In this document: one piece after another, positions 2,284 to 61,200 of the stretch
How the letters are laid out: the number at the start of each line of letters is the position of its first letter
Position numbering within the stretch: the first letter of the stretch is position 1
NCBI GenBank assembly: GCA_964016885.1
Contig: OZ024745.1
Coordinates: forward strand, 41,044,001-41,108,000
DNA: 64,000 nucleotides
Source of the DNA: Eledone cirrhosa
Taxonomy: Eukaryota
Direction: 5' to 3'
Notes under the pieces: generated by a model
What the model was told of the DNA's origin: nothing
Databases searched by the model: none
What the model saw: only the letters and a program-made list of their open reading frames with translations
Position numbers and translations under genes: made by a program

Positions 2284-2678
2284 ATATTGTTATACTTTGG
2301 GAGGGTCATGTTGCCAATAAGAAACACACGCACCAGTTGCTTTCACTTCAATTTATTATAATAAATTTATAAATTTAGGAATTTATAAATTTATAAATTT
2401 CTGGTTGGTTCCACAACCAGATAGTTGTTTATATATATATATATATATATATATATATATATATATATATATAAATAACTATCTGGTTGTGGAACCAACC
2501 AACCAACCAGAAATTTATAAAGTTATAAATTCCTAAATTTATAAATTTATTATAATAAATTGAAGTGAAAGCAAATGGTGCGTGTGTTTCTTATTGGCAA
2601 CATGACCCCAAAGTATAACAATATCGGTTTCAACACACGATTTCAGATAAAGATTCTTGCTAAACAAATTCAGAAACG
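2284..2678. mobile_element. fold-back PLE-derived insertion, family A copy 1
   Basis: Arms 2284-2430 and 2473-2624 are inverted; single-copy tail 2625-2678; flanked by (TA)n; same sequence at 20600 and 55424. Confidence 0.8.
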
Positions 2679-4432
2679 AAATATATATATATATATATAC
2701 ATGTATATATATATAGGGAGAGAGAGGGAGAAAAAAAGAAAGAAAGAGAAAGAGAGAGTGAGAGTGAGAGAGAGGGGGGGTAATGACATTACTGTTTGTG
2801 ATCAAAAGCGAGACAGTCGTCAAGAATAGGTGTAGAGTATATTGTATATTTATACTGAATAATTTTCCCGTCTCAAGTTTCAAGCCAATATATATTTGAC
2901 AAAGTCAAATGAAGATCGTCTTAATGTTGATACTATCACTCACAGAATTCCTTATGGACAGTCATATTATCAACTTGTCTTGATAAGACAACGTATAATC
3001 TCTCTCTCTCACTCTCTCTCTCTCTCTCTCTCTCTCTCTCTCTCTCTCTCTCTATATATATATATATATATATATATATATATATATATATATACATATA
3101 CATATATATATATATATATATCTATATATATATCTATATATATATATATATATATATATATATATCGATAAATGTACATATATATCCATGTATTTATATA
3201 TATATATATATATAATTATATATATATATATATATAAACACACACACACATACACACAGACCTACGCACACAAACACACATACATACACATGTGTATATA
3301 TATATATATATATATATATATATATATATATATATATATATATATATATTTATATATATATATATATAGATAAATCTACCAAAATATACGGTAGTGTCCA
3401 ATCCGTATGAAGAACTCAATGTAATCCAAATATCACGAAAAGAGAAGATGCATTCAAAAAATTTTTCGATGAAAATCACAGGAAAACAGAGTCAATATAA
3501 ATTATTAAAAACAATGAATAAAAACAAAGAAACAGTTCCTTATATTAAAAAATTCATCATTTTACGATCGTTTCTAGGATATATATGTATGTTCGTATCA
3601 TATAGATGTATATGTAAAAATTTTACAAACTATCAGAGGGAATATACATACCTACACATATATATGCTGTATTCAGAAATAATTGTTTCTACTTTTTGGC
3701 AAAAGGCCAGCAATTACCCAGTCAGAAATAATGATATTTGTTTATTGAAAAAAAAACAAATATTTATTATAATAGGTCTGTTTGGGAACAGATTTTGAAT
3801 TGACCAATAGAAAAGTAGTAAGTGGTCAAGTTGATAGAATAGTAGTAGTAAAAATTTAATTTAGGGGTAGAGGAATGTAGACTTCAGTTTTGAATGGAAA
3901 GAATATTTTGAATGAAAAGATTACGTTGGGGATGAAAAGAGGTCAAGCCGGTGAAAGGTACACGAAAATTTGATGTTATTAAAGAATAATTATAATGTTA
4001 AAATCGAAGGAGAATAACATTTTAGTGAGAAATACCAATCTTATTTAAAACATAAGGAATTTAGATCTATAAAAGGAAATTAAATTAATTTAATTGATAG
4101 GCATACTTATAGGGATAAATTTATATTAATTCATATAGATGTGATAAATAAGAGTTAGATGTTATTAAAGAATGTTGTTAAAAACGAAGGAAAACATTTT
4201 TTTGGGGGATAAATGTATTAGTGAGAAATAACAAACTTATATAGACTACAAGGATTTTAGATTCATAACAGGAAATTAAAATAGTTTATATGTATACTTA
4301 TAGGTATTCATTTTAGGAAAGGATAGCTGTAAAAGGGAAATAAAATTATGAAGTTCTCAGTAGTAAAATACTAATTATAAGTTAACTAAATTTAAAAACT
4401 AATTATAATAATTTGTAAAATATAAGTGTATA

Positions 4433-5559
4433 TTAATTAGGTTTATAATATTTGACAGTTTTTCTAATTCTATGATTGCACGATATAATTAATTCTTGTC
4501 GCTTATTTAATAGGATATCCTTAGATTTCATTATTTCAAAAAGTTCCTGGGAATATAATCTACACTCATATCTGTTATTTTGATAAGAGGTGGCCCTTTT
4601 GAGCACACTCCAGGTCAGGTTATAATCTATATTATTTTTTCTATAATTATTAATTATTTCAGCCAATTATTAGCTAATGCGGCATTTTAAAAACTGTTTG
4701 TGGGTATTAAATCTTACTTTAGATTGGTTAGAAGTAGCTCCTATATATAAATAAGTTGATTAAATGGAGCAGTATACCAAGTAACTAGTCTATTACGGTT
4801 TCGATGCTGTTTTTTTATTTTTATACGATGTATCCTGATGGGAATTTATTATACATATGTTTAGTTAGATTCAATGATTTAGGTATTTTAGCCAGATTAT
4901 TAGGAATTTTGTTAGTAATGTTAATAACATATATTGGAGTATTAGGATGAATGGTTATTTGAAAGTTATTATATTGTATGTGAGAAGAGGTAGAGAAATT
5001 AAGTTTTAAGTTGGTGTTTTGGGGTATAGTGTGAGTGGCATTTAGGTATGTATTTTTCATTTGGTGTTTGTTGGTAATATTGGGTTGTATGTTTGTAGTA
5101 TTATTGGTACAAGGTATATATAGTAATTTGTTTTTGTGGCCGCTTCTAGCTAAATCTTCGTTATAAAAGGTCGCATTTTTATCAAATACATCCTTGTTAG
5201 ATGAAAGGTTAGAAATCCTTAATGAGATATTATATGCTAGGTTTTTAAGGATAGATCTAGGGTGAATGGATTGTGAGTGTATGTAATGTAAGTTTTGGTT
5301 AGGTTTATGGTAAGGTTGATAGATACCCGTAGATAAGTCTAAAGTTATATCAAGGAAATTAACTGGTGTTTTCAAATGTAATAGTGAGACTATAATAGTC
5401 TTTGAGGAAAGTTCTAATAAGTTTTTTATCTTTTTCAATTTCTGATATGCTAAGGTTAGTGGAAAGAAGAAGACAGTCATCACGATATAAACCACCTTTA
5501 AGGTGGGGAAAAGAAGCATTTATGTTAAATAGAAGAAAGAGGCCCACAAGATCGGTAAT
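4433..5559 (-). pseudogene. inverted partial copy of PLE RT C-terminal half and GIY-YIG endonuclease
   Basis: ORFs 5359..5562 (GGLYRDDCL), 4821..5519 (VNFLDITLDL...YHKPN) and 4433..4666 (CRLYSQEL...LLNKRQELIISCNH) duplicate the + strand copy. Confidence 0.85.
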
Positions 5560-5759
5560 CACTACCGTATATTTTGGTAGATTTATCTACCTACTTTGCT
5601 CCTAATTTTATACAGGTATTCATATTTTAATATATATTTTTTATATTTATATATATTATTTTATAACTCCCTATATATATAGTTGAGCTCTCTTTCTTGT
5701 CCATTATCCATATTACAAAGGAAAAACAATACTTGGGAACTTCTTTACGTTCTAAGGAT

Positions 5760-59402: not shown

Positions 59403-60535
59403 TAGTGAAAGAGTGAAGAATAACATGGTCAACAGTACTAAAAGGGTTTTATTTACAGTATTAGCAATTGTTTCATTGATTAAGTTGTCTAAACATTGCT
59501 AATCACTTGAAGTTGTGTCACTCAATTTTAAATACAATGTATGCTTAATCAAATCATCTGAAAAACTGATTAAAATTATACACGGCGTTTGTAAAATACT
59601 AGGAAAATTCAAATCACAACATCAGTAATAAAGAAAGAAAAAGGAAAAAAGAAAAGAAAAAGAGAGAGAGAAAAAGAAAAAAAAGAAAAAAGAAAAAAGA
59701 TAAAGAAAAAATAATAAATAAATAATAATAAATAAGTTAGAATGAAGATGATAAAAAATAGAAATTAAGTAAAACAAATGTATATGTGTGTGAAGAAAAT
59801 TGAACATAATATGATTCTTGAAAATAGTTGTGGGGATGGTAGGGGTGGTCAAAATATAAAAATGTGATGGTATAAACATAAAAATACTAAATACATACAT
59901 ATATGTATTGGTTAAATTATATTATGAAGAAATAATACAGTGCTAAATAAAGGGTAAATTAGTCAGTTAATAAATTGGATGTTATGTTAGAAGTGAAGAG
60001 AACACGATAGGATATAATGGAAGAGGTGAAATAGTTTTAGGCAAAGAGAGTTAAAGAAACAAAAGTTAGGAGGTTATGATGTTGAATCAGTGATTAGTAG
60101 ATTTATTGACAGTTAGTAATAATTGTTTCTACTTTAGGCACGAGGCCAGCAATTACCCAGTGCATTACTGGTACTTTATTTTATCGACCCCGTAAGGATG
60201 AAAGGCAAAGTCAACCTCGCTGGGATTTGAACTCAGATCGTAAACAGACGTAACTATGCTGGAAAGCATGGCGTCCGGCCCTCTACCGATACTGCCAATC
60301 CACCGAATGGATTATTATAATAGACTCAGGTGGTACAGTTTGAATTATGGAATTGTTGGGTCGAGTCAAGTTAGTTTGAAATTAGTGAATTTAGTAGCTG
60401 CTTTATGCCTACAGAAAACTGACCGCTCTATTTTGCTGTTAAACAGCATTTTGTCATATTTTAAAATATGGAGCAACTCTATATTGCAAAGTCCGCAATG
60501 GGACATTCCATTTCTGTAGGCCTTTGCCCCTGAAA
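59403..60535 (-). mobile_element. 5'-truncated Naiad-like PLE with nested SINE and decayed hammerhead (59455-59555)
   Basis: AKAYRNGMSHCGLCNIELLHIL...LFNSKIERSVFCRHK (60366-60530); CAGATGA T TTGATTAAG...CTTAATCAA T GAAA CAATTG; (TA)n on both sides. Confidence 0.75.
60121..60305 (-). mobile_element. SINE copy, nearly identical to 543-727
   Basis: Matches consensus. Confidence 0.9.
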
Positions 60536-60569
60536 TATATATATATATATATATATATATATATATATA

Positions 60570-61200
60570 TATACAATACGTTATAAAGAAAGAAGAAACA
60601 TTAGACATAACATTAAAAAAATATAATATACCTAAATTCCTTCATTATCCTCGACTACGTAGTTTCGTGGCTACTTCGAAAAAACATTACATCATAGAGA
60701 TGCAGTATTTTTGTGAGGTTTGCCCCTGAAGTGTAGTGACTGCTATAAAGCTTACACTACCCACACTTCTCGCCCTCCTAGCCAACTCGTCTATGCCTTG
60801 TGGTATTTTTCTCTTGGTTGTAAGAGGCTTAACTCTGTTTCTTGACCGCTGTATCACGTGATAAGTTCCCCCTCCGCCTTTCGGGATTCTATCTCGCGTC
60901 CTATGGACGTGTTTTGAAACTCTAATTGAGGTATTCTCTTGATAAGTCGGCAAACCTCACCAAAATACTGCATCTCTATGATGTAATGTTTTTGCAAATT
61001 AGCCAATGAAACTACGTAGTCGAGGATAATGAAGGAATTTAGGTATATTATATTTTTTTATTTTATGTACAATGTTTCTTCTTTCTTTATAACATATTAT
61101 ATAGCTATGATATTGAATCAATCTAATCCATTCAGATTATTTTGTCCCTATTATTCATAGAGCCACAACGGTTAAGGTTGGCACCACACAAATTCAGGGA
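60570..61200. mobile_element. family G fold-back element with decayed hammerhead
   Basis: 60570-60724 is inverted at 60949-61103; ATTCTC TTGATAA...GAAA CTACGTAG TC GAGGAT at 60933-61027. Confidence 0.7.

What the first reader, a model, noticed from the sequence alone, without database searches (positions are those of the whole stretch)
2284..61200. Hammerhead-carrying, (TA)n-associated, fold-back Penelope-like elements from about 10 families
Seen: otherwise unrelated insertions (2284, 3368, 14414, 14793, 20600, 21985, 24310, 49776, 50003, 51958, 52362, 55424, 60570) share one architecture. They have (TA)n flanks and two inverted arms whose 3' ends point outward into the TA tracts; most have an extra 50-135 bp tail on one arm only and a type I hammerhead core in at least one family member. 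Two fold-backs still carry PLE RT and/or GIY-YIG coding sequence. Established: PLEs carry minimal hammerheads and can have inverted terminal repeats. Inference: because (TA)n is self-complementary, both ends of a GIY-YIG cut are equivalent primers, so two cDNAs could be primed from two fixed sites and joined 5'-to-5'. This would give MITE-looking elements that are really retro-products. The density here (about 20 ribozyme motifs in 64 kb) implies a very large genome-wide population.
Basis: partly seen in the sequence, partly recalled or inferred. Interest (0 to 1): 0.88.

Follow-up and report, generated by a model that had tools for sequence, protein, structure and literature searches.

The report
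Paired-start Penelope and retrozyme fold-backs
These palindrome-like repeats are truncated Penelope-type retrotransposons and ribozyme repeats sitting head-to-head in TA microsatellites, nearly always one short and one tailed end, likely because both strands of one DNA cut prime copying at two coupled RNA start sites.

Summary
The fold-backs are real. Seven families are 5'-truncated Penelope-like elements (PLEs): longer copies carry RT and GIY-YIG ORFs, five Hydra-type and two Neptune/Nematis-type. Two families (24314, 60574) are non-coding tandem hammerhead units of 422 and 590 nt, i.e. retrozymes. Exact-match arm counts for eight families total about 108,000 in the 3.0 Gb genome. The inverted copy, one-sided tail, hammerheads and (TA)n targeting are all published PLE features. 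What I did not find in print: (1) start sites are coupled, one short plus one tailed arm in 36 of 42 and 64 of 68 resolved pairs, where independent choice gives 50%; (2) either arm can be the longer one, some tailed arms are tail only, and partner arms share private variants; (3) retrozyme arrays carry the same two-end signature, up to 2.6 plus 7.5 units. Best reading: two-strand target-primed reverse transcription by a PLE dimer, then end joining. 'About 20 ribozymes' holds only if mutated and partial copies are counted; 8 pass a descriptor against 0.5 in shuffles. No cleavage, expression or long-read data were obtained.

The parts
2288..2680 (.). Family A fold-back: short arm left, tailed arm right; arms truncated at an internal TA run (central TA 2430-2473)
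3369..5559 (-). Family B (Hydra-type PLE) inverted arm with RT and EN remnants and a 134-nt tail (3369-3502)
5560..9159 (+). Family B near unit-length arm: starts with the last 28 nt of the tail, broken RT 5868-7120, linker and GIY-YIG 7441-8262, short end
12904..13521 (+).
14368..14684 (.). Family C (Neptune-type) fold-back; tailed left arm with hammerhead core at 14567 (-)
14794..15193 (.). Fold-back of a relative of family D (76-80% alike), degenerate hammerhead
20604..20891 (.). Family A fold-back, short left arm, tailed right arm
21985..24257 (.). Family E (Hydra-type) fold-back: tailed left arm 22807-21985; right arm with EN C-terminus 22805-23031 and U3-A8 hammerhead core at 24157
24314..24747 (.). 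Family F retrozyme fold-back: short left arm with mutated hammerhead, tailed right arm
49776..49961 (.). Family E short fold-back holding only the 3' half of the hammerhead
50003..51486 (.). Family D (Hydra-type) fold-back, hammerhead core at 50201 (-), SINE-like repeat inserted at 51017-51223
51959..52267 (.). Family G (Hydra-type) fold-back, tailed left arm; hammerhead-like motif doubtful
52364..52570 (.). Family H (Hydra-type) fold-back, tailed right arm; hammerhead mutated here, intact in other copies
55428..55949 (.). Family A fold-back with hammerhead cores at 55621 (-) and 55701 (+)
60574..61268 (.). Family I retrozyme (590-nt unit) fold-back; U3-A8 hammerhead core at 60939; tail about 61099-61268

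Best explanation
These are head-to-head insertions of Penelope-like retrotransposons and of two retrozyme families, with one short and one tailed end in (TA)n, likely made when a PLE RT-endonuclease dimer cuts both strands and primes two cDNAs at two coupled RNA start sites. Shown: family identity, fixed ends, pairing, TA flanks, variable 5' ends. Inferred: one 3'-OH starts at the upstream site, the other at the downstream site, and the tail is the sequence between them; each cDNA stops at a variable point; the two cDNA ends are joined by microhomology-type end joining. Both arms come from one donor, possibly one RNA molecule read twice by strand displacement. Retrozyme RNAs, likely circular or multimeric, carry their own pair of start sites and would use the PLE protein in trans. 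Hammerhead cleavage is likely not required for each insertion.
For: Family A: 10,238 short ends followed by TA and 10,137 tailed ends. 36 of 42 head-to-head neighbours among 199 listed ends are mixed, p=1.4e-6. Other families: 64 mixed, 2 short-short, 2 tail-tail, 20 unresolved of 88. Of 40 apparent singles, 21 had a partner arm, always of the other type. In 69 simple family A junctions the short arm reaches further 5' in 28, the tailed arm in 28; 11 tailed arms are tail only; 28 junctions overlap by 2 nt or more, 13 are blunt, 28 have inserted letters. Variants seen in exactly two arms lie within one pair 19 times against 1.2 expected. L265 holds two longer-than-unit family C arms, 99.86% identical, short plus tailed. 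Retrozyme arrays: 12 mixed, 0 homotypic, 5 unresolved; L323 has 2.6 plus 7.5 units. In vitro, an anole PLE cuts and extends both strands, starts at two sites bounding the tail, and is predicted to be a dimer (PMC11167929).
Against: No biochemistry, RNA or long reads for these families. About a third of family A insertions are not fold-backs (extrapolated): 9 of 40 singles abut TA directly and 9 abut other sequence. 7 of 127 resolved pairs scored homotypic; two of these are mis-parses on inspection (L265, L112). The anole assay saw no strand difference in start site. Shared variants could reflect later gene conversion; 8 of the 19 come from one locus, and older pairs are often not nearest neighbours (rank 1 for 25 of 64 arms). 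No autonomous partner was matched to either retrozyme. Hammerhead regions fold no better than shuffles (z +0.25 to -1.95).
Confidence: 0.7

Rival explanations
1. One cDNA is primed at the target; the second arm is copied from it, or from the inserted DNA, by fold-back self-priming or later break repair. Self-priming on an antisense template was proposed for rotifer PLEs.
For: Arms share private variants; small palindromes and templated inserts occur at junctions; proposal in PMC3846280 (passages).
Against: A copied arm must be a subset of the first arm. The tail is absent from short arms, yet short arms reach further 5' in 28 of 69 pairs, and 11 tailed arms are tail only and share nothing with their partner.
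Confidence: 0.12
2. Two-strand priming as in the best explanation, but from two separate RNAs held by an asymmetric dimer, the shared variants coming from one active donor per cell or from later conversion. This differs from the best explanation only in the template step.
For: Both arms can be 1-4 kb and cover the same sequence; in L265 both stop within 8 nt of the hammerhead cut, as if each ran off a linear RNA.
Against: Does not by itself explain the one-each start choice; arm lengths are correlated (rho 0.41, n=69, sample partly hand-picked).
Confidence: 0.35
3. MITEs of a TA-targeting DNA transposon, with terminal inverted repeats.
For: Short copies look like hairpin MITEs with TA flanks.
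Against: Ends are asymmetric, centres differ in every copy from 44 nt to 5.7 kb, interiors of long copies are RT and GIY-YIG ORFs, and no transposase was seen in the ORFs printed.
Confidence: 0.01
4. Assembly or chimeric-read artefacts.
For: Palindromes beside microsatellites are error-prone; the listed short-read contigs did not bridge two window junctions (lists cut).
Against: Arms differ by 0-9% substitutions, end at two biological sites, and join with microhomology or inserts; one head-to-head joint of another family A copy appears in short-read contigs of one sample, with only 26 letters on the short side.
Confidence: 0.02

Closest known systems
Hydra clade of PLEs (Craig et al. 2021, PMC8557442)
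   Same: C-terminal EN, DKT motif, CxCX5C linker, CxxC and CxH around the catalytic E and N, (TA)n insertion, hammerheads (families B, D, E, G, H).
   Different: Very high copy numbers here; no hammerhead found in B and a doubtful one in G; no tree with reference sequences was built.
Neptune/Nematis PLEs
   Same: CX4CxxC linker plus CCHH GIY-YIG at the C-terminus, minimal hammerheads (families A, C).
   Different: A has a long insert between RT motifs A and B; C is split into two overlapping frames in all 40 scored copies.
Penelope (D. virilis), rotifer Penelope, anole Poseidon
   Same: Inverted 5'-truncated copy, tail at one end, two RT start sites, both strands cut and extended.
   Different: Tails are 50-170 nt, not 30-40; the inverted form is the majority product; start sites carry 2-6 nt matching TA; the one-each pairing is quantified here.
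Metazoan non-LTR retrozymes (PMC7229834; bioRxiv 10.64898/2026.07.22.740005)
   Same: Non-coding tandem units with one type I hammerhead each (F 422-430 nt, I 590 nt).
   Different: Arrays here are head-to-head with PLE-type short and tailed ends in TA; units are longer than the 150-450 nt range quoted for I; circular RNA not tested.
L1 twin priming (recalled; only search listings seen)
   Same: Both target strands prime reverse transcription, giving an inversion.
   Different: In L1 the two pieces do not overlap and the second start is not fixed; here both arms cover the same sequence and both starts are fixed.

Membership tests
EN+ Penelope-like elements | RT plus GIY-YIG endonuclease contiguous with the terminal repeat | tested here: met
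   A, B (50), C, E, H (48), D (56), G (48, 93). Pfam: RVT_1 and GIY-YIG for C, weak GIY-YIG for A, no hit for five Hydra-type sequences.
EN+ Penelope-like elements | 5' truncation, partial tandems, inverted copy, one-sided tail | tested here: met
EN+ Penelope-like elements | Minimal type I hammerhead in the pLTR | tested here: inconclusive
   Met for A, C, D, E, H by motif; not found in B; doubtful in G; cleavage untested.
Hydra clade | DKT, CxCX5C linker, no CCHH, CxxC and CxH in EN | tested here: met
   Alignment A1 against the text of PMC8557442. DKT seen in B and E only; B linker reads CxS; D assigned by tblastn likeness to E, not in the alignment.
Hydra clade | RT phylogeny with reference Hydra elements | not testable with these tools
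   No named reference proteins were fetched.
Neptune/Nematis | CX2-5CxxC linker and CCHH motif | tested here: met
   Read from translations of A and C; Neptune versus Nematis not resolved.
Naiad/Chlamys | N-terminal EN | tested here: not met
   EN follows RT in every ORF seen.
Non-LTR retrozymes | Non-coding tandem repeat with a hammerhead per unit | tested here: met
   F. I: two units in L234, 582-596 nt spacing in three more places.
Non-LTR retrozymes | Expressed as self-cleaved linear and circular RNA | not testable with these tools
   No RNA holder listed.
MITEs | Fixed length, symmetric TIRs, cognate transposase | tested here: not met

The most novel reading that the evidence does not exclude
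The default PLE insertion is a coupled double reverse transcription: a dimer reads one RNA from two fixed start sites on the two strands of one cut, and animal retrozyme circles are bona fide passengers that carry the same pair of start sites and are copied by two-way rolling. The tail would be the footprint of the two active sites, and about 100,000 MITE-looking arms in this genome would be its products.
Probability: 0.4. Interest if true: 0.8.

Novelty: new variant of a known kind. Interest (0 to 1): 0.56.

Why it matters
How PLEs make inverted repeats and tails, and what mobilises animal retrozymes, are both stated as open in the papers read. The one-each pairing rule and the retrozyme end signature give direct genomic constraints and a simple in vitro test. 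In practice, tens of thousands of these repeats are likely to be mis-filed as MITEs or unknown repeats by automatic annotation.

Tried and rejected
Rfam scan: no hammerhead among the 150 rows shown of 275, which were dominated by microsatellite matches. No RNA holder listed for the F unit. Short-read contigs: no listed piece bridged the two window junctions tried. Hammerhead cut as the usual 5' end: rejected; 16 of 30 family A run-on copies extend over 500 nt, well through the cut, and of 25 family C loci 4-5 read through and none stop at it (one search crashed after 9 loci); L265 is the one case at the cut. TA tracts written by the RT rather than pre-existing: undecided; 7 of 126 insertions had an empty-site match, one (L116) with only a short interrupted TA, and no clean TA-free host site was found. 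Excess of tail-only arms as a sign of collision on one RNA: not shown (11 versus 8 short arms). One search counted overlapping loci twice and was replaced. Autonomous partner for F or I by sequence: only weak hits. Earlier findings: none returned. No structure or complex prediction was run.

Full report
Setting. The window is G000:C5:41044001-41108000 of a 3.0 Gb animal genome. I guess a cephalopod from size and sequence style; this was not tested and nothing below depends on it.

Observation. Self-BLAST finds inverted arms at all 13 listed places. TA tracts follow 24 of 26 ends, against 1.6% of background positions and 1 of 36 ends of a SINE-like repeat. A relaxed type I hammerhead descriptor gives 8 hits against 0.52 in 60 shuffles: seven in families A (two), C, D, E, F, I and one at 21864 in an unlisted element. 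E and I have the U3-A8 core and most have the extra base before helix II and a palindromic helix III, as described for PLE hammerheads (PMC4209133, parts 1-2 of 4 read). My descriptor was widened after seeing these motifs, so the contrast with shuffles is somewhat flattered; the first, strict version gave 3 against 0.15.

What they are. Exact-match counts of one arm pattern per family: A 23,759, E 53,660 (38), H 7,584 (39), G 685 (40), I 102 (44), C 7,855 (45), D 1,007 (51), F 13,544 (54); B was not counted. [quoted passage not shown] B, E, G, H and, by likeness, D show Hydra-clade motifs (definition in PMC8557442, passages, which also says almost all Hydra families insert in (TA)n and have hammerheads). 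A and C have the CX4CxxC linker and CCHH of Neptune/Nematis. F and I are different: F is a 422-430 nt non-coding unit in tandem arrays with one hammerhead per unit; I is a 590-nt unit, with no contiguous ORF in 10 loci read about 7 kb upstream. These fit non-LTR retrozymes (PMC7229834, passages).

The pairing rule. Family A has 10,238 short ends followed by TA and 10,137 tailed ends; only 437 tails run on into the ORF by exact match. Among the first 199 listed ends, 42 neighbours lie head-to-head within 7 kb: 36 mixed, 3 short-short, 3 tail-tail (p=1.4e-6 against 50%); 8 neighbours have other orientations. Five of the six homotypic pairs were fetched: two 'tails' are internal run-ons, one pair is two adjacent mixed insertions, one is two separate arms, one stays tail-tail. 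Over all loci held at that point, 152 unique fold-backs gave 120 mixed, 4 short-short, 3 tail-tail, 25 unresolved; without family A, whose loci were partly chosen for tails, 64, 2, 2 and 20. Family I resolved poorly there because my tail motif was set too early; by eye two pairs are mixed. Forty of 93 remaining apparent singles were fetched: 13 of 20 short ends had a tailed partner, 8 of 20 tailed ends a short partner, none a partner of its own type; 9 abut TA, 9 abut other sequence, 1 an assembly gap. Extrapolated, about 65% of family A insertions are fold-backs.

Arm anatomy. In 69 of 76 mixed family A pairs with a simple junction, the short arm reaches further 5' in 28, the tailed arm in 28, and 13 are level; 11 tailed arms hold only tail sequence; junctions overlap by 2 nt or more in 28, are blunt in 13 and have inserted letters in 28, by BLAST edges (examples). 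This excludes copying of one arm from the other as the general route. Partner arms are closer than average (0.040 versus 0.079; nearest neighbour for 25 of 64 arms, 12 arms dropped because the 260-nt slice ran past the junction) and share two-copy variants 19 times against 1.2 expected in 39 A pairs, 4 against 0.5 in 8 D pairs. L265 has two family C arms of 4.3-4.4 kb, each longer than a unit, 99.86% identical, both ending within 8 nt of the hammerhead cut. F arrays obey the rule: 12 mixed, 5 unresolved, none homotypic, with multimeric arms. Template sequence just past most start sites begins with TA-like bases (read), allowing 2-6 nt of pairing with a TA primer (inference).

Mechanism. An anole PLE cuts and extends both strands, starts at two RNA sites that bound the tail, does not need hammerhead cleavage and is predicted to be a dimer (PMC11167929, parts 1-2 of 4 and passages; its supplement was not seen). 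The genomic pattern here is what two-strand priming followed by end joining would leave, with the added rule that the two starts are coupled. Whether one or two RNAs are read is open. Many long copies read through the hammerhead site, so templates are often uncleaved, multimeric or circular.

Comparison with print. [quoted passage not shown] Paired hammerheads on opposite strands 100-700 bp apart were noted in Schistosoma. PLEs are the proposed mobilisers of retrozymes, on co-occurrence and phylogeny (bioRxiv 10.64898/2026.07.22.740005, part 1 of 5 and passages; supplements closed). I found no statement of the coupled-start rule or of PLE-type ends on retrozyme arrays in searches. [quoted passage not shown] An octopus repeat annotation lists PLEs without this anatomy (PMC13282606, parts 1-2 of 3). 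PMC9977147 and PMC12910113 (passages) added nothing on structure.

Verdict. Real and largely a known kind of element. The coupled starts and the retrozyme end signature are the parts worth following; interest 0.56.

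Noticed in passing
L265:4781-8361 and 40 scored copies: Family C is split into two overlapping frames (about 450 and 775 aa) with a T-TTT-TTA run in the overlap; all 40 scored copies of 543 candidates are 100% identical there. 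Possibly a programmed -1 frameshift in a class described as single-ORF; no strong downstream hairpin was predicted.
   Followed up: partly
window 54434-55337 (-): Another TA-flanked Hydra-type PLE remnant with the EN C-terminus at 55333-55076, single arm.
   Followed up: partly
window 21082-21970 (+): TA-flanked element with a type I hammerhead at 21864; its end matches 24929-24961 inverted.
   Followed up: no
window 15217-15589 (-): Single arm of a family A relative with a hammerhead-like core at 15471.
   Followed up: no
window 49051-49723: TA-flanked element with a 112-nt direct repeat 558 nt apart; may be another tandem unit.
   Followed up: no
   Followed up: no
families E and C: Arm 5' ends cluster: in E near hammerhead helix II, in C near a short palindrome about 85 nt upstream of the cut; possible RT pause or microhomology sites.
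   Followed up: no
L116 (G000:C1:43549300-43554700): Full-length family A copy inside a repeat whose other copies have only a short interrupted TA, yet both flanks now hold over 20 nt of TA; compatible with TA growth at or after insertion.
   Followed up: partly
window 51017-51223 and about 17 more copies: A roughly 190-nt SINE-like repeat, not TA-flanked.
   Followed up: no
window 38474-43299 (-), 44200-45554, 19229-19986: LINE with AP endonuclease and RT (RVT_1) and two decayed relatives.
   Followed up: no
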